The notes under the pieces are model-generated. The model was not told the origin of the DNA, made no database searches, and was given only the letters and a program-made list of their open reading frames with translations. 64,000 bases of DNA, taken from the NCBI RefSeq assembly GCF_044324785.1, contig NZ_CP172127.1, one strand, 5' to 3'. Made by a program: the position numbers and the translations under genes. Positions 1-8,629 of the stretch are shown piece by piece (position 1 is the stretch's first letter; every line of letters begins with the position of its first letter). Origin of the DNA: Escherichia coli. Lineage in GTDB: Bacteria; Pseudomonadota; Gammaproteobacteria; Enterobacterales; Enterobacteriaceae.

Positions 1-1038
1 TGCCCATTTTTGAATTCTATTGTATCGAGAGGGCAATGTGAATTTTTTAACTTGTTTGTAACATTCCTTTTGGAATTCTTGCTGATATTTTATTATGTCG
101 TTGTATGAAAGATTGTTTACCCTGGTCTCTAATAATTCTATTATTGTCGAAGCAATTTCCGCTTTTGCTCTTAAAGAGTTGTCATTAATGGTTAATAATG
201 TTGAAAATAAACCATTGATTTGTTTGTCAAGATATTGTTCATCTTTATGTAATTTTGTGATAGGGTATTCCTTATGTGAAAAAATAGTATCAAATAAATT
301 TGCATCAGTGAAGTTTACATTAAGTAGATCTTCGAAATAAAACCTTGACAAGGTTAGAACGAACCCGGACAGATCCTGTCCTGTCATATTGAAATCAATA
401 AAGTTGGTTCCAGCAAAGACTTTCATCTTGTTTTCATTTTCACTGTTCTCAATATACAACCTTATCATTTTTTGGTACAAGCTTTGAATATCTTTTATAT
501 CAGTTGGTAAATCAGTTCGTTGCCCAGAAAAATTTTTATTTTCGGAAGAAACGGTTTGGACACTGAATCTTACTGGTATTCCCTCTTCTACGAGAATTTT
601 AGTTATGATTGGCTTATTGGGCTTAGGATTAAAGACAACAATGATTTTAGATTCAGAGTTTTTATTCTTTTCGTATCTAATGTTATTAATCTGATTAAGT
701 ATTGATTGTGTCTGTTGCGTAAGTGGTGTCGAACTTATCGTTTCAATGTTATTAATAAGACTTACAAGTTGAGCCACAACTTTTGAGTAGTCTGCATTTG
801 TATATGTGGTGTTCGTGTGGCACGCATTAATTTGTTGGAATTGTTGTTGCGCTAAATCAAATTGTTCAGCGTTATATCCTTCTTCAGACAATGAAAAATT
901 AATGGGTTGCTGTTCTTCCTGATTATCACAAGGCCACATCGGTGTGTCTGGTGTTTTAACATTGTCGGTATCTGTTGTGCGGTTATAAATATCGCCGTGA
1001 TATGTATTTATCATACCTGGGGTAAAGTCAATTGACAT
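1..1038 (-). CDS. Partial CDS (N-terminal ~346 codons; 3' end lies beyond the window start) for an AT-rich protein with pentapeptide-like repeats; possibly the yhiS-position gene
   Basis: Reverse-strand frame is open from ATG at 1038 to position 1 with no stop; AGGA-type RBS precedes the ATG; absent from the ORF track because no stop lies in the window; translation contains [19 protein letters not shown]...[10 protein letters not shown] repeats. Confidence 0.55.
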
Positions 1039-1618
1039 AACATTCCTTATTGTTCATCTATTTCGCTAAATTTTTGTAAATCGGAGAATTAGAGCAGGAA
1101 TGGATTTTCTTCTACGCGGAAATAAACACAATGCGTCATATCTTCCTGATATAATTACCTTTAACTTCCCTTTCATTTCCACCCGGTAATATTTGTGTAT
1201 AAAAAAAGGGCAGTGATAGTATCGTAAAGGAAAACGTTAACAACTATCAAAAAGCGCTCATTTTAAAAAGTTATGATGTTCACCGATAGTGTGTGAAGTG
1301 ATATTTTTGTGATGTTTTAGATGTGTAATAATGAACCAGGTTAAAGTGTATTTAAAAATGTGTTGTATTGGCGACTGAAATCTGCCCTTTAAAAGGGGGG
1401 ATAGCACTGAGACAAAGAGACATTGCTTCTCCGATAAAATGTCAGAGAAGCATGATTGCGTGGTGATTGTCGATTGATGACTTACTGACGGATCCGTCAT
1501 CATTCTCAAAGCATTAGTTCAATCATTTGTGATTTTTAAGGATTATCCTGTCTATGATTTTCTACTTAGAAGGATATGGCACTAACTATGCATCTTATAG
1601 TTTACTGTCGGCATCTAT

Positions 1619-2620
1619 TTAAAATAGCATTTGAGTCAAATAGCCCATCAAGATAGCCATACCTAAGATAACCGTCAGGAATGCAACTATCATCGGTATT
1701 CTGAACATTGATTTAAGTAATATCACTTCCGTCAAACTTGCTCCGGCACTGCCGATGATTAATGCCATTAATGCTCCCAGACCCATTCCTTTTGTCATCA
1801 AAACAGATGCCAGAGGGATAATCGCCTCTGCCCGGATATACAGCGGAATTCCGACAACGGCGCTCAATGGGATGGCGAAGGGATTATCTGCCCCTGCATG
1901 AGCGGCAATCCACTCTGAGGGAATAAAGCCATAAATAAAAGAGCCTATTAATACCCCTAACAAAAGATATGGCAGTACATCTTTAAACTGTTGCAACGCA
2001 TCTTTGGTGGCTAGTTTTATGGGATTAATACTTACCACAGCTTTGGTACTGCAACAGTTTACTACAGGTTTCTCAATGGCTTTAGCCGCTGGACTACAGC
2101 AACTCGCTTTTATCGGCGTATATGTCGTCCCCGGCGAAGTTTTGGCTGGAGCACAACAATTTGCTGATGAGCTTTTACTGGCAATGATATGACGTTCAAA
2201 TCCCAGAGAATCCAGGATAATACTGGCAAGTACGGAGACGCCGGCGGCGATAATCGCGTACAACAAGGTAACTTTCCAGCCAAAGGTCACCCACATTAAC
2301 CCGACGATAATGGGATTAAGTAATGGTGAAACAAATAAAAAAGTGAGAGTCGGACCAAACCCGGCTTTCGCTGATAACAATCCACGTAACATGGGGATTG
2401 TCGAGCAACTACAGAACGGGGTAACGGCTCCCAATAGAGCAGCCAGGAGATAGCCTCTCCCTTTTCTGGCCCCCATCATCTGCTGGATTTTATGGTCTGG
2501 CACCTTTTGTCTTATCAGGCTGACACCGGCACTTATCACTATAAACAGCAAAGAAAGCTCGACGGCGAGAAACACAAACATCTCTGCGGCATCTTGCAGC
2601 ATCGCAAGCCAACTACTCAT
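1619..2620 (-). CDS. arsP: ArsP-like (DUF318/YraQ-type) permease, putative organoarsenical efflux permease
   Basis: Multi-pass hydrophobic protein with an exact TPFCSCSxxP motif (TPFCSCSTIP) and a Cys-rich central loop; start chosen at ATG 2620 (GAGG RBS at correct spacing) rather than the ORF-track start at 2632. Confidence 0.6.
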   Translation of the reverse strand: MSSWLAMLQDAAEMFVFLAVELSLLFIVISAGVSLIRQKVPDHKIQQMMGARKGRGYLLAALLGAVTPFCSCSTIPMLRGLLSAKAGFGPTLTFLFVSPLLNPIIVGLMWVTFGWKVTLLYAIIAAGVSVLASIILDSLGFERHIIASKSSSANCCAPAKTSPGTTYTPIKASCCSPAAKAIEKPVVNCCSTKAVVSINPIKLATKDALQQFKDVLPYLLLGVLIGSFIYGFIPSEWIAAHAGADNPFAIPLSAVVGIPLYIRAEAIIPLASVLMTKGMGLGALMALIIGSAGASLTEVILLKSMFRIPMIVAFLTVILGMAILMGYLTQMLF

Positions 2621-2726
2621 ACGTAACCTCATTGAATAAATCTATATTTCCAGAATAATCGAAATGAAATTCAGATCAAGATATTTCTGGTATTATCGAA
2701 ATATCAACCAGACAAAGGGGTGTCAT

Positions 2727-3023
2727 ATGCAGTTGGAAGAAGTTGCTAAAGCGCTGAAAGAGCTAGGTCACCCGACCCGTTTGTTCATATTCAAACACCT
2801 GGTCAAAGCGGGGGAACAAGGTTTGCCGGTCGGTGAGTTGCAAAAGCAGCTTGGGATACCCGGCTCTACACTCAGTCACCATATTTCAGCACTGGTATCG
2901 GTAGGGCTGGTCAAACAAAACCGTGAGAGTCGAACGCTGATGTGTGTTTCGCAATACGCAATGCTGGAAGCGATAATTGAATTCTTACGCGAGGAGTGCT
3001 GCGTAAATAGCAAAATTGCCTGA
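2727..3023 (+). CDS. ArsR/SmtB-family transcriptional regulator, second copy, divergent from the ArsP-like gene
   Basis: HTH region HPTRLFIFKHL...GELQKQLGIPGSTLSHHISALVSVGLV; cysteines are C-terminal (CVSQY, ECC) and the canonical ELCVCDL site is absent; start at internal ATG 2727 with AAAGGGG RBS. Confidence 0.7.
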   Translation: MQLEEVAKALKELGHPTRLFIFKHLVKAGEQGLPVGELQKQLGIPGSTLSHHISALVSVGLVKQNRESRTLMCVSQYAMLEAIIEFLREECCVNSKIA

Positions 3024-3145
3024 TGCGCTACGCGCTACAGATTTCATGCTATGCACGGTTTTGTACGTCGGATAAGACGCGTTAGCGTCGCATCCGACAT
3101 AAACAAAGCGCACTTTACCAACTATGGGCAGTGGATATCGCCGCT

Positions 3146-3571
3146 TTATTTCAACCGTTTACCCGCCTCATCAACCACTTTCTCGCCATCTTCCTTGGTG
3201 AACGCGCCTTGTTGCGCATTTGGCAGAATTTCCAGCACCACTTCTGAAGGGCGGCACAGGCGAGTTCCCAACGGCGTCACCACAATCGGGCGATTAATCA
3301 GAATCGGGTGCTGAAGCATAAAGTCGATTAACCGATCGTCAGTAAATTTATCTTCTGCAAGGCCCAGTTCCTCATACGGCTCGACGTTTTTACGCAACAG
3401 CGCGCGTACGGTAATCCCCATATCGGCAATGAGTTTGACCAGCTCATCGCGCGTTGGCGGTGTTTCCAGATAATAGATAATGGTCGGTTCTGTACCGCTG
3501 TTGCGGATCATCTCCAGCGTATTACGCGACGTACCGCAGGCCGGGTTGTGATAAATGGTAATGTTGCTCAT
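3146..3571 (-). CDS. arsC: Arsenate reductase (glutaredoxin-dependent)
   Basis: 141 aa, MSNITIYHNPACGTSRNTLEMIR..., recognised as E. coli ArsC. Confidence 0.95.
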   Translation of the reverse strand: MSNITIYHNPACGTSRNTLEMIRNSGTEPTIIYYLETPPTRDELVKLIADMGITVRALLRKNVEPYEELGLAEDKFTDDRLIDFMLQHPILINRPIVVTPLGTRLCRPSEVVLEILPNAQQGAFTKEDGEKVVDEAGKRLK

Positions 3572-3583
3572 ATCAATATCTCA

Positions 3584-4873
3584 TTACAAAGTGAAAGAGA
3601 GACGTAGCGCCAGCGCAGCCAGCGTCACAAAAAGCACCGGCAGGGTCATGATAATCCCTGTACGGAAGTAATATCCCCAGCTGATAGTCATATTCTTCTG
3701 CGAAAGAACGTGCAGCCAGAGTAGCGTAGCCAGGCTACCAATTGGGGTAATTTTCGGTCCCAAATCGCAGCCAATCACGTTGGCATAAACCATCGCTTCT
3801 TTGATAACGCCAGATGCCGTGCTGCCATCAATGGACAACGCGCCAACCAGTACCGTCGGCATATTGTTCATAATAGAAGAGAGGAAGGCAGTGAGGAATC
3901 CGGTGCCGAGCGTCGCGGCCCACAGGCCGTTTTCAGCCAGCACGTTGAGTACGCCAGAAAGATATTCCGTTAGTCCGGCATTGCGCAGGCCATAAACCAC
4001 CAGATACATGCCGAGCGAGAAGATGACAATCTGCCAGGGCGCACCGCGCAGGACTTTACCCGTATTAATTGCATGACCGCGTTTAGCGACGGCAAATAAT
4101 ATCAGCGCGCCCACTGCCGCAATGGCGCTTACCGGAATGCCGAGCGGTTCCAGGACGAAAAATCCCACCAGCAGAAGCAGTAAAACAACCCAGCCAGCTT
4201 TGAACGTAGCAGGATCTTTAATCGCTTCTGCGGGAGATTTCAGCAGCGCCATATCGTAGTTCTGCGGAATATCTTTGCGGAAATAGAGATGCAACATCAC
4301 CAGCGTGGCAACAATTGCGGCGATATCCACCGGCACCATCACCGAGGCATATTCGCGAAAGCCGAGGCCAAAGAAATCTGCGGAAACGATATTCACCAGG
4401 TTGGAGACAATAAGCGGCAGGCTGGCGGTATCGGCAATGAATCCGGCCGCCATCACAAACGCCAGCGTCGTGCCTTTACTGAACCCTAAAGCCAGCAGCA
4501 TGGCGATGACAATCGGTGTCAAAATAAGCGCCGCGCCATCATTGGCAAACAGGGCGGCAACGGCAGCACCGAGCAGGACAATCCAGGTAAACAGCAAGCG
4601 ACCGCGTCCATTGCCCCAGCGTGAGACGTGCAGCGCCGCCCACTCAAAAAAGCCGGACTCATCCAGCAGCAGGCTGATGATAATGACGGCAATAAACGCC
4701 GCCGTCGCGTTCCAGACGATATTCCACACCACAGGAATATCACCCGGATGTACCACGCCCGTAACTAACGCCAGTACTGCGCCGAGTGTTGCACTCCAGC
4801 CGATGCCTAAACCTTTCGGCTGCCAGATAACCAATACGATGGTCAGGACAAAGATAGCGCCTGCCAGTAACAT
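3584..4873 (-). CDS. arsB: Arsenite efflux pump
   Basis: 429 aa from [13 protein letters not shown]...; polytopic membrane protein; GGGAGG RBS before ATG 4873. Confidence 0.95.
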
Positions 4874-4927
4874 AATGCCTCCCGGAAAAAACACATGTGC
4901 AAATCCATATGTGTTTAGATAAATTTT

Positions 4928-5281
4928 TTAACTGCAAATGTTCTTACTGTCTTCGGAACAATTTTGTCGAGCCAGGTTGCGGACAATCACCTGAACCTTT
5001 TCCTGTTCGCATCGCCAGGCCTGCTCAATAATTTTCGCGGCCCATGATGGAATATGCGGTGATAAGCGGTAATGAACCCACTTACCCTGCTTGCGATCCA
5101 GCAATAGCCCACTTTCACGCAGCAATGCCAGGTGGCGGGATATCTTGGGCTGCGACTGATCGAGGGCAGTACAGAGATCGCAGACGCATAATTCTCCCAG
5201 CTCGCTGAGCAGTAAAACGATGCCCAGACGGGTTTCATCAGCAAGAATTTTGAACAGTTGGATGGGTAACAGAAATGACAT
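4928..5281 (-). CDS. arsR: Arsenical resistance operon repressor
   Basis: 117 aa with the canonical metal-binding motif ELCVCDL. Confidence 0.95.
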   Translation of the reverse strand: MSFLLPIQLFKILADETRLGIVLLLSELGELCVCDLCTALDQSQPKISRHLALLRESGLLLDRKQGKWVHYRLSPHIPSWAAKIIEQAWRCEQEKVQVIVRNLARQNCSEDSKNICS

Positions 5282-5427
5282 ATTGCGCTCCTGATTGTTG
5301 CAGGTAGTGTCTCTCTTCGAAGCGGATAAGTCAAAAACATATATGGTTTAACGAATGTGTATGTGCAGAGGAAGGTAATAGGTGTGAATTTTGAGTTGGC
5401 TATTCATTTGAAAGGAGGTCTGAATCA

Positions 5428-5525
5428 GGACGTAAAAAAACCGACTTTGCGTCGGTTTTTTACTTCCCAGCCCTGAGTTGGTGGCTCTGGCTGGAGTGAG
5501 AGAGCTCTTATCTAACAGCTCAATA
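5428..5525 (-). ncRNA. agrA: agrA/agrB-type antisense sRNA repeat, copy 1 (which copy is agrA and which is agrB is uncertain)
   Basis: ~95 nt unit repeated at 5663-5762; on the minus strand it ends in a hairpin CCGAC-GCAAA-GTCGG followed by a T-run; unit is near-complementary to the dinQ 5' region at 5919-5953. Confidence 0.45.
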
Positions 5526-5662
5526 CTATTAGCCAGTGGCTAACATTGCAAGAATTAGCGATTTCTTCAGCTGGCGAAGGGACAGTTTGCTATACATGTT
5601 GGTGAAAGAGGATTTATATACTTTCATCGGGTCGCTGCCGTACCAAGCCTTGTCCGAATCCG

Positions 5663-5762
5663 GACGTAAAAAAACCGACTTCGCGTCGGTTTTTTACTTT
5701 CCAGCCCTGAGTTGGTGGCTCTGGTTGGAGTGAGAATGCCATCATCTAACGCATCAATGCTA
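5663..5762 (-). ncRNA. agrB: agrA/agrB-type antisense sRNA repeat, copy 2
   Basis: Second copy of the same unit with the same terminator hairpin; position matches the K-12 arsR-gor intergenic dinQ-agrAB locus. Confidence 0.45.
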
Positions 5763-6023
5763 ATACCATACTGAAACTATTGCAAGGACGTGCTGGTTTT
5801 ATAACCTGCATGTACTGTATGATTATCCAGTTAGCTCTGAGGCATTTTCACTCTGGTAATGCGCATAAACGCTTTCAAAGTCCTGGTCAGAAGTACGGGT
5901 GGTGCCGTTAACTGATGCTCTGGCCGGAGTGAGAGAGTTCTTATCTAACAATGAGACATGCGCCGTGACAGGCAGTGGATGAGTAAGCGGATGCATTCTC
6001 ACTCCATCGCATGGAGAAAACGG

Positions 6024-6107
6024 GTGATTGATAAAGCAATCATCGTTCTTGGGGCGTTAATTGCGCTGCTGGAACTGATCCGCTTTCTGCTTCAGCTTCT
6101 GAACTGA
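6024..6107 (+). CDS. dinQ: DinQ type I toxin peptide (27 aa, GTG start)
   Basis: Translation (V)IDKAIIVLGALIALLELIRFLLQLLN matches the DinQ peptide as I recall it; lies between the agr repeats and gor. Confidence 0.7.
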   Translation: MIDKAIIVLGALIALLELIRFLLQLLN

Positions 6108-6124
6108 TAGCGGAAACGTAACTA

Positions 6125-6153
6125 AGGGCAAAGAGCACACCACTCTTTGCCCT
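6125..6153 (+). terminator. Hairpin after dinQ, possible terminator
   Basis: AGGGCAAAGAG / CTCTTTGCCCT stem followed by TTAACATTT; weak U-tract. Confidence 0.35.
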
Positions 6154-6160
6154 TTAACAT

Positions 6161-7513
6161 TTAACGCATGGTCACGAACTCTTCTGCCGCCGTCGGGTGA
6201 ATGGCGACGGTATTGTCGAAGTCTTTTTTGGTTGCGCCCATCTTCAGCGCCACCGCGAAGCCCTGCAACATTTCATCCATACCAAAACCAATGCCGTGAA
6301 TTCCGACAATCTTCTCTTCCGGTCCAACGCATACCAGTTTCATGCGGCACGGCTGGCGGTGAGTGGTGACTGCGGTATACATCGCGGTGAAAGAGGATTT
6401 ATACACTTTCACCTGATCGTCGCCGTACTGCTCGCGCGCCTGCGGTTCCGTTAAACCAACAGTCCCAATCGGCGGATGGCTGAAGACCACGGTCGGAATG
6501 TTGCTGTAATCCAGATGCTCATCCGGCTTGTTATTAAACAGGCGTTCAGAGAGACGGCGACCCGCTGCAACTGCTACCGGTGTCAGTTCCACTGCCCCCG
6601 TGTTATCGCCCACCGCGTAAATACCTTCAACGTTGGTATTTTGATATTTATCGACGACGATATAGCCTTTTTCGTTAGTTTTAACGCCAGCGGCTTCCAG
6701 GTTGATGTTGTCATTGGCAGGCTCGCGACCAATCGCCCAAATCAGGCAATCTACCGTTTCACTGCGACCATCTTCCAGCTCCAGCGTCAGGCTGCCGTCG
6801 GCATTTTTCACCACCGCTTTCGGGATGGCGTTGGTGTGCAGCTGCGGGCCTTCGGCGTTCATCACTTCGACCAGCGTTTCAGAGATCATCGGGTCGAAGC
6901 TGCGCAGCGGCGCATGTTTACGCACAAACAGATGCGTTTTCGCGCCGAGGCCGTTAATCACGCCCGCCAGTTCAACGGCGATGTAACCCGCGCCAACAAC
7001 CGCTACGCGCTCTGGCAGCGCCGGCAGGGCGAAGAATCCATCAGAATCAATACCGTATTCCACGCCCGGAATATCCGGGTGGCTCGGACGACCGCCGGTG
7101 GCGATCAGAATATGATCGGCCGTGATGGTTTCGCCGTTTACCTCCAGCGTTTTGGCATCAACGAAGCGGGCAAAGCCTTTGATTACATCAACGTTATTTT
7201 TACCGAGCACGTTTTCATAGGAAGTATGAATACGGTCGATATAGGCGATACGGCTGGCGATCAACGTTTCCCAGTTGAATTTATTGATAGTGGTATCGAA
7301 ACCATAATCCGGACCGTACATGTGGATCGCTTCACGGATTTGCGCCGCGTGCCACATCACTTTTTTCGGCACGCAGCCGACGTTCACGCAGGTGCCGCCC
7401 AGTTCTTTGGCTTCAATCAGCGCGCATTTCTGACCGTACATAGCCGCGCGGTTGATGGAGGCGATACCGCCGCTGCCGCCGCCGATGGCGATGTAATCAT
7501 AGTGTTTAGTCAT
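6161..7513 (-). CDS. gor: Glutathione reductase
   Basis: 450 aa, [19 protein letters not shown]..., FAD/NAD-binding GxGxxG motifs, redox-active [10 protein letters not shown]. Confidence 0.97.
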
Positions 7514-7584
7514 GACAGAGTGTCCTTATCGTTGATTACCGCGATTGTAGCGCGAGACGTAATAGGTGCCAGCAATGGCTGCAA

Positions 7585-8427
7585 TTACTCCGGCACGATC
7601 CAGCTTACGGTGGCGTGCCCGGTGCCAGCCGGAACCAGTTTGCTGTGCAGCCACGGCAGCACGTTATTCATCTGCTGTTCCAGTTTCCACGGCGGATTAA
7701 TCACAATCATGCCGGAAGCGGTCATGCCACGGCGATCGCTGTCTGGCAGCACCGCCAGTTCAATTTGCAGAATTTTGCGAATGCCAGTCGCTTCCAGGTC
7801 GTGGATCATGCGCTTAATTTGCTGGCGCAACACCACCGGATACCACAGTGCGTAAGTGCCAGTGGCGAAACGTTTATAGCCTTCTGCTATCCCGCTGACC
7901 ACCGCCTGATAGTCGGTTTTCATTTCATACGGCGGGTCGATAAGGATTAAACCACGGCGGGAAACCGGCGGCAGTTTGGCCTTAAGCTGCTGGAAGCCAT
8001 CGGCTTTTTCGACGCGCGCACGGCTGTCTTTCTGAAATTCAGAACGCAGCAACGGGTAATCGCTCGGGTGCAGTTCGGTCAGTTGCAGGCTGTCCTGTTC
8101 ACGCAGTAGCTGACGAGCAATCAACGGTGAACCGGGGTAGTAACGCAACTGACCGCTACGGTTGAAGTGTTTTACCACATTGATGTACGCCTCCAGCTCC
8201 GCAGGCAAATCGTCCTGCTGCCAGATACGGGCGATACCTTCGAGATATTCGCCGGTACGCTCGGCATGTTCGCTGCCTAACTGATAACGCCCGGCCCCTG
8301 CGTGGGTATCGAGATAGAGAAACGGTTTATCTTTCTCTTTCAGCGACTCGATGATCAGGCTCTGAACGGTATGTTTAAGGACGTCGGCGTGGTTGCCAGC
8401 GTGAAAGCTGTGGCGATAACTGAGCAT
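7585..8427 (-). CDS. rlmJ: 23S rRNA m6A2030 methyltransferase
   Basis: 280 aa from MLSYRHSFHAGNHADVLKH; ATG at 8427 preferred over the ORF-track start at 8478. Confidence 0.9.
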   Translation of the reverse strand: MLSYRHSFHAGNHADVLKHTVQSLIIESLKEKDKPFLYLDTHAGAGRYQLGSEHAERTGEYLEGIARIWQQDDLPAELEAYINVVKHFNRSGQLRYYPGSPLIARQLLREQDSLQLTELHPSDYPLLRSEFQKDSRARVEKADGFQQLKAKLPPVSRRGLILIDPPYEMKTDYQAVVSGIAEGYKRFATGTYALWYPVVLRQQIKRMIHDLEATGIRKILQIELAVLPDSDRRGMTASGMIVINPPWKLEQQMNNVLPWLHSKLVPAGTGHATVSWIVPE

Positions 8428-8629
8428 GGGTAAAGGTGTTCCGGTAAGTAAAAATCGGCCCGTATTCGGGGCGCACAAAAGCCTATCAGGACAGTATACC
8501 GAAAAGAGGCCGCCGCCGCGAAAGCGTAACGTTTCTCATTGAAATTCACTACACTTAACCCCATGCTACAAACATTATGTAAAGCGCCTGTTGAGCGCTT
8601 CCTTAACCTCTTTAACCAGGACTGCGCTA

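What the first reader, a model, noticed from the sequence alone, without database searches (positions are those of the whole stretch)
5428..6153. dinQ-agrAB type I toxin-antitoxin locus with tandem antisense sRNA repeats
The intergenic region contains two ~95-nt tandem repeats, each ending in a bidirectional hairpin and T-run, plus a third partial copy (5919-5953) inside the dinQ 5' region; the repeats are antisense to that region. The 27-aa DinQ ORF follows. This is a known system as I recall it, included because the ORF track misses it and annotation pipelines often do too. The two repeats differ at several positions in the segment that pairs with dinQ, which may matter for which copy represses.
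Basis: partly seen in the sequence, partly recalled or inferred. Interest (0 to 1): 0.35.

Follow-up and report, generated by a model that had tools for sequence, protein, structure and literature searches.

The report
Known dinQ-agrAB toxin-antitoxin locus

Summary
The finding is confirmed, and the system is already known. Window 5282-6160 is the E. coli arsR-gor intergenic region, in reverse orientation to K-12.

- **The parts.** Two Rfam AgrB (RF02891) matches lie on the minus strand: 5432-5515 (agrB) and 5666-5749 (agrA). The 27-aa DinQ toxin ORF is at 6024-6107, with a GTG start, and matches NCBIfam NF041472. K-12 annotates all three genes at the same positions.
- **Corrections.** The repeats are not head-to-tail. 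They are 114-136-nt direct repeats 234 bp apart, and Tandem Repeats Finder finds nothing. The third copy is at 5917-5950 and is the mapped AgrB target, dinQ nt 88-119.
- **This strain.** AgrB is the predicted antitoxin (-61 kcal/mol duplex). AgrA is mismatched (-44 kcal/mol).
- **A gor fragment.** The spacer holds a gor-derived relic (5588-5643) that ends at the repeat junction. E. albertii has matching relic pieces. This points to an old tandem duplication of agr-dinQ-gor 3' followed by loss of one dinQ.
- **Variation between strains.** The roughly 9-nt core of the dinQ target has at least five alleles in E. coli, and one agr copy always matches it. In roughly 30% of complete genomes the matching copy is the agrA-position one. 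About 15% carry a repeat-mediated deletion that removes both promoters.

I did not find the last two points in the papers I read.

The parts
5434..5515 (-). agrB small antisense RNA gene (82 nt). This is the copy next to arsR and the predicted cognate antitoxin in this strain.
   Evidence: Rfam RF02891 at 5432-5515(-), 104.5 bits. K-12 agrB coordinates were mapped through alignment A1. The fold has two hairpins including the terminator, z = -5.0.
5523..5551 (-). agrB promoter: -35 TTGCAA (5546-5551), 17-nt spacer, -10 TAGTAT (5523-5528), transcription start at 5515.
   Evidence: Read directly from the sequence. It is identical in all sampled haplotypes. The start was mapped by primer extension in K-12 (PMC3567139). 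The consensus scan missed it because it matches only 8 of 12 positions.
5435..5461 (.). agrB terminator hairpin, flanked by an A-run and a T-run, so bidirectional in form.
   Evidence: Inverted repeat I1 and the Rfam structure line.
5588..5643 (-). Relic of gor coding sequence, equivalent to gor 6373-6428. It sits in the agrB-agrA spacer and ends at the repeat junction (5644-5651).
   Evidence: Local alignment score 77 against 31 +/- 3.8 (maximum 44) for shuffles. D3. Collinear relic pieces are present in E. albertii and L090.
5668..5749 (-). agrA small RNA gene (82 nt). This paralogue lies next to dinQ and is mismatched to this strain's dinQ.
   Evidence: Rfam RF02891 at 5666-5749(-), 99.7 bits. 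K-12 agrA mapping. Pairing is 25 Watson-Crick, 4 G.U and 5 mismatches. Predicted duplex -43.7 kcal/mol.
5757..5785 (-). agrA promoter: -35 TTGCAA (5780-5785), 17-nt spacer, -10 TAGCAT (5757-5762), transcription start at 5749.
   Evidence: Read from the sequence. The -35, spacer and start region are the same in all sampled haplotypes; the -10 is TAGCAT except in the O157:H7-type strain 120, where it is TAGTAT.
5669..5695 (.). agrA terminator hairpin.
5813..5832 (+). LexA operator (TACTGTATGATTATCCAGTT) overlapping the dinQ -10 (TATGAT, 5818-5823). dinQ +1 is at 5830.
   Evidence: Window 5790-5856 is identical to K-12, where the operator and promoter were defined (PMC3567139). The +1 position was derived from the published numbering SD = G184-G187 (PMC5066626).
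5830..6155 (+). dinQ primary transcript, about 330 nt. The processing site +44 is at 5873.
   Evidence: Numbering from PMC5066626, applied.
5845..5857 (+). dinQ sequence element 1 (U16-C28; nt 28 is U in this window). It pairs with element 2 in the inert +1 mRNA.
   Evidence: The MFE fold pairs 5845-5857 with 5923-5935 exactly. Model from PMC5066626.
5917..5950 (+). Third copy of the repeat. It is the AgrB binding site (dinQ G88-A119) and contains element 2 (5923-5935) and the hypervariable core (about 5934-5944).
   Evidence: D2. Pairing tables. PMC5066626.
5996..6016 (+). Element 3 (5996-6007) and element 4 with the SD GGAG (6011-6016). Together they form the SD-sequestering hairpin.
   Evidence: pairs 6002-6007 with 6011-6016 in the +1 form. 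The inverted copy of GGAGTGAGA lies at 5997-6005.
6024..6107 (+). dinQ CDS: GTG start, 27 aa (MIDKAIIVLGALIALLELIRFLLQLLN) plus stop.
   Evidence: NF041472 at 54 bits. The peptide is identical to K-12's, with one synonymous difference. Annotated as dinQ in all sampled RefSeq genomes.
6124..6154 (.). Bidirectional terminator shared by dinQ (+) and gor (-).
   Evidence: I3 and the terminator scan.

Best explanation
The locus is the chromosomal dinQ-agrAB type I toxin-antitoxin system of E. coli.

**How it works (from K-12 experiments).** dinQ (+ strand, +1 at 5830) is transcribed from a LexA-repressed promoter after DNA damage. The full-length mRNA is translationally inert. Its element 1 (5845-5857) pairs with element 2 (5923-5935), which leaves element 3 free to lock the Shine-Dalgarno sequence (6013-6016) in a hairpin. 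Removing the first 44 nt frees element 2 to pair with element 3. This opens the SD and allows translation of the 27-aa membrane-depolarising peptide from GTG 6024.

AgrB is an 82-nt constitutive RNA made from the opposite strand (5515 to 5434). Its 5' 34 nt pair with dinQ nt 88-119 (5917-5950). This recaptures element 2, re-closes the SD hairpin and triggers RNase III cleavage.

**In this strain (inferred from sequence).** AgrB is the antitoxin. It has 32 Watson-Crick pairs, 1 G.U and 1 mismatch, with a predicted duplex of -61 kcal/mol. AgrA (5749 to 5668) has five mismatches and four wobbles (-44 kcal/mol), so it should not repress.

**Origin (inferred).** The two agr genes descend from a tandem duplication of a unit made of agr, dinQ and about 270 bp of the gor 3' end. 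The left dinQ copy was later lost, leaving a gor relic at 5588-5643.

**What is shown and what is inferred.** Sequence identity, family membership, complementarity and the +1 fold are shown here. Transcription, processing, toxicity and repression are taken from K-12 experiments and were not tested on this allele.
For: - **Family matches.** Rfam AgrB matches twice above the gathering score; these are the only Rfam matches in the whole 64-kb window. NCBIfam toxin_DinQ, an equivalog model, is matched.
- **K-12 comparison.** K-12 annotates dinQ, agrA and agrB at homologous positions. The 879-nt region aligns end to end with K-12, with 43 differing columns of about 880. These cluster in the agrB-agrA spacer, and the dinQ promoter, the AgrB target site, elements 2-4 and the peptide are identical; the only 5'-UTR difference is C28U in element 1.
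- **Prevalence.** The region is present in 5422 of 5426 complete E. coli genomes.
- **Pairing and structure.** Pairing counts and duplex energies are. The MFE of the +1 mRNA reproduces duplex 1:2 and the SD hairpin. AgrB folds well, z = -5.
- **Published experiments.** PMC3567139 reports northern blots, primer extension, UV sensitivity of the agrB mutant and the 27-aa GTG product. PMC5066626 reports SHAPE, in vitro translation and RNase III cleavage. PMC12365149 shows that a 4-nt mismatch in the plasmid agrB abolishes repression of dqlB and that a compensatory change restores it.
- **Duplication model.**
Against: - No expression data exist for this strain.
- This window's AgrB differs from K-12's by one base (5505 C). 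That puts a G.U in the duplex, and its effect is untested.
- MFE folding of the +44 form did not reproduce the published 2:3 duplex. SD unpaired probability rose only from about 0.06 to about 0.25.
- The consensus scans did not flag the agr promoters or terminators. The promoters match only 8 of 12 consensus positions; for the terminators the probable reason is that the scan absorbs the T-run into the stem.
Confidence: 0.95

Rival explanations
1. AgrA is not a decaying duplicate, as the published K-12 view has it. The two agr genes are two maintained 'slots' with different specificity cores, and which slot holds the cognate antitoxin depends on the lineage. Short gene conversion among the three direct repeats (agrB, agrA, dinQ target) keeps one copy matched to dinQ.
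For: - **Matching alleles.** Across 12 haplotypes, including E. albertii, the dinQ core has five alleles. One agr copy always matches it with 0-1 mismatch, while non-cognate pairs have 2-6. A permutation test gives 5e-5, but the haplotypes are not phylogenetically independent.
- **Role swap.** In 504211, EC9952 and XJ6.1 the agrA-position copy has a perfect core and the agrB-position copy has 5 core mismatches (6 over the 34 nt). The predicted duplexes are -56.5 and -44.3 kcal/mol. The caps21a, E69 and O157:H7 types also favour the agrA position.
- **Frequencies.** Haplotype counts at 99% identity or more are about 1252 + 309 + 146 with the agrA position as best match, against 1586 + 144 + 133 with the agrB position.
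- **Both copies are maintained.** Both agr copies keep intact promoters, stem-loops and terminators in every haplotype sampled.
- **Shared core alleles.** The window's agrA core (AATGCCATC) is the sole agr allele in UID2309.
Against: - This rests on sequence inference alone. No experiment exists outside K-12.
- The haplotype counts are upper bounds, because partial hits fall in the same identity band.
- The haplotypes share ancestry, so the number of independent switches is small.
- In this window, AgrA has no detectable alternative target within 64 kb.
Confidence: 0.6
2. In this strain both AgrA and AgrB repress dinQ, or AgrA is the real antitoxin.
For: AgrA keeps 25 Watson-Crick and 4 G.U pairs out of 34, and its promoter and terminator are intact. 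In K-12 both RNAs lower the level of full-length dinQ mRNA (PMC3567139).
Against: - The predicted AgrA:dinQ duplex is -43.7 kcal/mol against -61.2 for AgrB.
- K-12 AgrA, at -45.6 kcal/mol, neither repressed +44 translation nor changed SHAPE reactivity (PMC5066626).
- The window's AgrA also has a weakened first stem-loop, z = -2.4.
Confidence: 0.07
3. The repeats are only structural or terminator repeats, such as REP-like elements or leftovers of a duplication, with no RNA product.
For: The hairpins look like bidirectional terminators lying between convergent and divergent genes. The consensus promoter scan finds no promoter for them.
Against: - The covariance-model matches are far above threshold.
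- The -35, 17-nt spacer and -10 are conserved in every haplotype.
- Transcripts and 5' ends were mapped in K-12 for sequences nearly identical to these: the promoters are the same and the RNAs differ at 2 (agrB) and 5 (agrA) of 82 positions (PMC3567139).
Confidence: 0.02

Closest known systems
dinQ-agrAB of E. coli K-12 MG1655 (b4613, b4712, b4713; Weel-Sneve 2013, Kristiansen 2016)
   Same: It is the same locus, with the same flanking genes, gene order and orientations. The DinQ peptide, dinQ promoter, LexA box, elements 2-4, the AgrB target site and the agr promoters are identical.
   Different: - There are 43 differences in 879 nt, concentrated in the gor-relic spacer.
- AgrB has one base change, giving a G.U with dinQ.
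- The AgrA core is AATGCCATC here and ATAGCCATC in K-12.
- dinQ nt 28 is U here and C in K-12.
- This exact haplotype class is rare: 133 of 5425 matching records (5422 genomes) at 99% identity or more.
Plasmid dqlB-agrB addiction modules (pOXA-48, IncX3 pOXA-484; PMC12365149, PMC12317039)
   Same: These belong to the same toxin and antisense-RNA family. A region of about 35 nt in the 5' UTR is complementary to the 5' end of agrB. Base-pairing specificity was proven with compensatory mutants.
   Different: They are plasmid-borne and act in post-segregational killing. IncX3 plasmids are reported to carry a single agrB and no agrA. DNA identity to this window is only about 67-73% over dinQ.
tisB-istR-1 (E. 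coli)
   Same: It is a LexA-controlled type I toxin. The primary transcript is inert and is activated by 5' processing (+42 there, +44 here). The antisense RNA is divergent and trans-encoded, and it triggers RNase III cleavage (PMC5066626 discussion).
   Different: The sequences are unrelated. TisB uses a ribosome standby site rather than the four-element SD switch, and it has a single antisense RNA.
Multi-copy type I systems with paralogue-specific antitoxins (ibs-sib, ldr-rdl, zorO-orzO/zorP-orzP). This comparison is from my own knowledge and was not checked here.
   Same: Duplicated toxin-antitoxin units in which a few nucleotides decide which sRNA represses which toxin mRNA.
   Different: In those systems each antitoxin keeps its own toxin. 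Here one toxin gene was lost, and two antitoxin paralogues share a single toxin.

Membership tests
DinQ/AgrB type I toxin-antitoxin family | A small hydrophobic single-transmembrane toxin peptide of the DinQ family. | tested here: met
   NCBIfam NF041472 toxin_DinQ (equivalog) at 54 bits against a cut-off of 30. The peptide is identical to K-12 DinQ.
DinQ/AgrB type I toxin-antitoxin family | An antisense sRNA matching the AgrB covariance model: a 5' single-stranded antisense region, a stem-loop and a Rho-independent terminator. | tested here: met
   RF02891 at 104.5 and 99.7 bits against a gathering score of 40. The predicted folds agree.
DinQ/AgrB type I toxin-antitoxin family | The sRNA is encoded upstream of and divergent from the toxin gene without overlapping it. 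Its 5' end has about 31-34 nt complementary to the toxin 5' UTR. | tested here: met
   The 34-nt direct DNA repeat is transcribed from opposite strands (D2). AgrB pairs with 32 Watson-Crick, 1 G.U and 1 mismatch.
DinQ/AgrB type I toxin-antitoxin family | [quoted passage not shown] | tested here: inconclusive
   All four elements are present, differing from K-12 by a single base (C28U). The +1 MFE forms 1:2 and 3:4 exactly. The +44 MFE breaks 3:4 but does not form the published 2:3 duplex.
dinQ-agrAB locus proper (chromosomal, E. coli) | [quoted passage not shown] | tested here: met
   arsR is at 4928-5281(-) and gor at 6161-7513(-). The operator and promoter sequence are identical to K-12. LexA binding itself was not tested.
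Type I toxin-antitoxin systems in general | The toxin is toxic when overexpressed, and the antisense RNA blocks its translation or destabilises its mRNA. | not testable with these tools
   This was shown for K-12 (PMC3567139, PMC5066626) and for plasmid dqlB-agrB (PMC12365149). For this allele it is inferred.

The most novel reading that the evidence does not exclude
The role of antitoxin is not fixed to agrB. The core of about 9 nt in the dinQ target site is polymorphic in E. coli, with at least five alleles, and it co-varies with one of the two agr paralogues. In roughly a third of complete genomes, including the O157:H7 type and the common 504211 type, the dinQ-proximal 'agrA' copy is the matched antitoxin and 'agrB' is the mismatched one.

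The three direct repeats would exchange short patches by gene conversion. That switches specificity while keeping toxin and antitoxin complementary. The same repeats also mediate clean loss of the system: about 15% of genomes carry a deletion removing both promoters.

On this reading agrB is the orphaned antitoxin of a dinQ copy lost after an ancient duplication of agr-dinQ-gor'.
Probability: 0.55. Interest if true: 0.45.

Novelty: already known. Interest (0 to 1): 0.3.

Why it matters
The locus itself adds nothing new. It is a textbook chromosomal type I toxin-antitoxin system, and the window's copy should work as in K-12.

The strain comparison has modest value in three ways.

- **Annotation.** It suggests the K-12 labels 'AgrB = antitoxin, AgrA = degenerate copy' should not be transferred to other E. 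coli, such as O157:H7, without checking complementarity.
- **Mechanism of co-evolution.** It offers a simple explanation for how a trans-encoded antisense antitoxin and its target can change together: they are direct DNA repeats read from opposite strands, so gene conversion preserves pairing.
- **History of the locus.** The gor relic gives physical evidence for how the paralogues arose.

These points could guide sRNA annotation, and they could guide experiments on cross-talk with the widespread plasmid dqlB-agrB addiction modules.

Tried and rejected
- **Cross-species scan.** I scanned genome contigs with CTGAGTTGGTNGCTCT. With 15 specified bases the pattern was too short for 298 Gb. Only E. 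albertii, three Escherichia records, Citrobacter werkmanii, Hafnia paralvei, Serratia silvae and Photorhabdus khanii were real.
- **Strain N3 as a proxy.** I first took strain N3 (100% identical over 5282-6160) as the source of the window and fetched its annotation. The flanks are only about 97.5% identical, and N3 has a 1.7-kb insertion the window lacks. N3's annotation of the rest of the window was therefore discarded.
- **Tandem Repeats Finder.** It finds nothing, so 'tandem' in the strict sense is rejected.
- **Consensus scans.** The promoter and terminator scan missed the agr promoters and terminators. I read them by eye and from the Rfam structure instead.
- **LexA palindrome.** Searching for the perfect palindrome with up to 3 mismatches found nothing, because the dinQ box has 5 mismatches to it. 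I relied on identity to K-12's characterised operator.
- **+44 dinQ fold.** The MFE fold did not reproduce the published 2:3 duplex.
- **Possible dinQ-promoter relic.** A possible relic of a second dinQ promoter or LexA box at 5575-5600 (alignment, about 55% identity) overlaps the gor relic. It is too weak to claim.
- **Second AgrA target.** I looked for one in the window and found none.

Full report
**What is there**

Window 4928-7513 carries arsR (minus strand), an 879-bp intergenic region and gor (minus strand). arsB and arsC lie upstream and rlmJ lies beyond gor. This is the E. coli K-12 arsR-gor region in reverse orientation.

- The intergenic region aligns end to end with K-12 3647652-3648527. 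K-12 annotates dinQ, agrA and agrB there.
- Mapped through the alignment, agrB is window 5434-5515 (-), agrA is 5668-5749 (-) and the dinQ CDS is 6024-6107 (+).
- Rfam's AgrB model (RF02891) independently matches 5432-5515(-) at 104.5 bits and 5666-5749(-) at 99.7 bits, against a gathering score of 40. These are the only Rfam matches in the whole 64 kb.
- The 27-aa GTG-initiated ORF matches NCBIfam NF041472 'toxin_DinQ' at 54 bits, against a cut-off of 30. It encodes the same peptide as K-12, with one synonymous change.
- The region is found in 5422 of 5426 complete E. coli genomes.

**Checking the observation**

The two long repeats are real: 5418-5531 and 5652-5765, 114 nt ungapped at 87% identity. 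With one indel they extend through the -35 boxes to about 136 nt.

They are not tandem in the strict sense. Their starts are 234 bp apart with a spacer of about 120 nt, and Tandem Repeats Finder reports nothing.

Each repeat begins with an A-run/hairpin/T-run (5435-5461 and 5669-5695). On the minus strand this is the sRNA terminator.

The third copy is at 5917-5950, 94% identical to the agrB copy and 79% to the agrA copy.

The 9-mer GGAGTGAGA occurs four times in 64 kb against 0.21 expected, and all four are in this locus. Three are direct copies, in agrB, agrA and dinQ element 2. One is inverted, in dinQ element 3.

**Anatomy in the published numbering**

I took SD = G184-G187 from Kristiansen 2016 (PMC5066626) and applied it to the window.

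| Element | Window coordinates |
|---|---|
| dinQ +1 | 5830 |
| +44 processing site | 5873 |
| Element 1 | 5845-5857 |
| AgrB target (G88-A119) | 5917-5948 |
| Element 2 | 5923-5935 |
| Element 3 | 5996-6007 |
| Element 4 with SD | 6011-6016 |
| GTG start | 6024 |
| Terminator shared with gor | 6124-6154 |

- The LexA box TACTGTATGATTATCCAGTT (5813-5832) and the -10 TATGAT are identical to K-12.
- The agr promoters can be read directly from the sequence. agrB has -35 TTGCAA (5546-5551), a 17-nt spacer and -10 TAGTAT (5523-5528), with the start at 5515. agrA has TTGCAA (5780-5785) and TAGCAT (5757-5762), with the start at 5749.
- ViennaRNA folding of the +1 mRNA reproduces duplex 1:2 and the SD hairpin 3:4 exactly. 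The +44 fold loses the SD hairpin but does not form the published 2:3 duplex.
- AgrB folds into the expected two hairpins (z = -5.0). AgrA's first stem is weakened in this strain (z = -2.4).

**Mechanism**

This is established for K-12 and inferred here. LexA represses dinQ. The primary transcript is inert, and removing 44 nt opens the SD so that the toxic 27-aa inner-membrane peptide is made. AgrB pairs with nt 88-119, re-closes the SD hairpin and provokes RNase III cleavage. AgrA does not repress (PMC3567139; PMC5066626).

In this window AgrB pairs with dinQ through 32 Watson-Crick pairs, 1 G.U and 1 mismatch out of 34. AgrA has 25, 4 and 5. The RNAduplex energies are -61.2 and -43.7 kcal/mol. 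The experimentally inactive K-12 AgrA scores -45.6. So AgrB should be the antitoxin in this strain. The one base by which this AgrB differs from K-12's (5505 C) only converts an A-U pair to a G.U.

**A gor relic in the spacer**

The spacer between agrB and agrA contains a fragment of gor coding sequence: 5588-5643 corresponds to gor 6373-6428, in the same orientation. The local alignment score is 77, against 31 +/- 3.8 (maximum 44) for shuffles. The fragment ends at 5643, a few bases before the second repeat begins at 5652.

- In E. albertii a single agr gene is preceded by two collinear gor pieces. One is the last 30 nt of gor (window 6161-6190 equivalent, 87% identical). The other is the 19 nt just before the same junction (6411-6429 equivalent).
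- Another Escherichia genome (L090) keeps the relic plus a remnant of the agrB promoter.

The simplest reading is a tandem duplication of a unit made of agr, dinQ and about 270 bp of the gor 3' end, before the E. coli/E. albertii split. Deletions then removed the left dinQ. On this reading agrB is the orphaned partner of the lost dinQ, and agrA is the original neighbour of the surviving one.

Weel-Sneve 2013 only says the sRNAs were 'presumably tandemly duplicated' and does not mention the relic.

**The dinQ target and the agr copies co-vary between strains**

I sampled 15 E. coli loci across the identity range, plus the genome-collection hits. The core of about 9 nt after GGAGTGAGA in the dinQ target is hypervariable, and in every case one agr copy matches it.

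| dinQ core | Strains | Matching agr copy |
|---|---|---|
| GAGTTCTT | K-12, window | agrB position |
| AATGCCCAC | JNE120442 | agrB position |
| AATGCCATT | 504211, EC9952, XJ6.1 | agrA position, perfect core; the agrB-position copy has 5 core mismatches (6 over the 34 nt) |
| ATAGTCGTC | caps21a, E69, E. albertii | agrA position, one G.U |
| AATACCATT | O157:H7 type | agrA position is the best match |

- The predicted duplex energies flip accordingly. In 504211 the agrB-position copy scores -44.3 and the agrA-position copy -56.5 kcal/mol.
- Randomly re-pairing dinQ alleles with agr sets gives a mean best-copy penalty of 2.1, against 0.46 observed. A fraction of 5e-5 of the permutations reach the observed value. 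The haplotypes are not phylogenetically independent.
- Both agr copies keep intact promoters, stem-loops and terminators in all haplotypes. That is not what a decaying pseudogene would look like.
- The haplotypes differ by at least 19 nt, so counts at 99% identity or more to full-length queries approximate their frequencies.

| Haplotype type | Records at 99% identity or more |
|---|---|
| K-12 | 1586 |
| 504211 | 1252 |
| O157:H7 | 309 |
| caps21a | 146 |
| JNE120442 | 144 |
| Window | 133 |

These counts come, in which 5422 of the 5426 genomes have a match. They are upper bounds, because partial hits fall in the same identity bands.

I did not find this variation or role swap in Weel-Sneve 2013, Kristiansen 2016 or T1TAdb (PMC8594479), nor through three full-text searches. 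The published view is that agrA is a degenerate, non-functional copy.

A few mismatches are enough to abolish repression in this family. This was shown with compensatory mutants for plasmid dqlB-agrB (PMC12365149).

**Copy-number variants**

Recombination between the repeats produces two kinds of variant.

- Single-agr loci: 2011C-4251, UID2309 and N66.
- A deletion fusing an agr copy to the dinQ copy within the 34-nt repeat: A26 and 2547. It removes the agr promoter, the dinQ promoter with its LexA boxes, and dinQ nt 1-87.

In one search, 828 of 5422 genomes covered less than 80% of the query. All three rows of that class in the spread listing were the 50%-coverage kind, and the two I examined (A26 and 2547) are this fusion.

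**Wider family**

The conserved scaffold of terminator plus stem-loop, with a variable 5' antisense segment, recurs in several relatives, each with a matching target next door. Citrobacter werkmanii has six agr-like copies and at least three targets. Hafnia paralvei has three copies at one locus and a single copy at a second. Photorhabdus khanii has one.

The toxin recurs on about 2400 plasmids as dqlB.

**Verdict**

The system is already known, so novelty and interest are low.

The strain-level co-variation and role swap and the gor relic are modest additions that I did not find in the papers I read. Both are sequence inferences that need experiments.

Noticed in passing
window 5588-5643: A fragment of gor coding sequence (equivalent to gor 6373-6428) lies between agrB and agrA and ends at the repeat junction. 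It is the most polymorphic part of the intergenic region: 16 variable sites in 5581-5610 among 10 haplotypes.
   Followed up: yes
L004 (E. coli A26) about 700-800; L015 (strain 2547): Recombination within the 34-nt repeat fuses an agr copy to the dinQ copy. It deletes the agr promoter, the dinQ promoter with its LexA boxes and dinQ nt 1-87, and leaves a promoterless dinQ ORF next to arsC. The class with under 80% coverage contains 828 of 5422 genomes.
   Followed up: partly
L006 848-1063(-); L003 908-1081(-); L011 and L013 839-1012(-): RefSeq annotates 'hypothetical protein' CDSs on the minus strand over agrA and the gor relic, or antisense to the dinQ 5' UTR, while leaving agrA and agrB unannotated. 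These ORF calls look spurious.
   Followed up: no
window 1-8443 and 8443/8607, compared with L136 (strain N3): The intergenic region is 100% identical to strain N3, but the flanking 8 kb is only about 97.5% identical. N3 also carries a 1.7-kb insertion (YwqG-family protein plus a hypothetical protein) between rlmJ and prlC that the window lacks. The same dinQ-agr haplotype therefore sits in diverged backgrounds, which may reflect recombination.
   Followed up: partly
window 5857: dinQ nt 28 (element 1) is U here and in the 504211-type and 2011C-4251-type strains, and C in K-12. This gives a G.U with G94 at the end of the 1:2 'lock' duplex.
   Followed up: no
window 5993-6006 versus 5726-5739: The + strand of this strain's agrA copy is perfectly complementary over 14 nt to dinQ element 3 and its upstream extension (GCATTCTCACTCCA). 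dinQ alleles with an AATGC core would extend the 2:3 'open' duplex: predicted -25 to -26.5 kcal/mol, against -20.3 for the K-12/window allele. Alleles may therefore differ in how easily translation is activated.
   Followed up: partly
L020 4741-5777 plus L021 671-974 (Citrobacter werkmanii BBMW01000020); L084 (Hafnia paralvei): These loci carry arrays of three to six agr-like genes about 115 bp apart, with differing 5' cores, next to dinQ-like genes. Unlike in E. coli, these are close to true tandem arrays.
   Followed up: partly
window 1-2954: The region upstream of arsC aligns only in patches with K-12's yhiS/IS5 region: 87-89% identity over 1-1357 and nothing over 1358-2953. I did not examine its content.
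   Followed up: no
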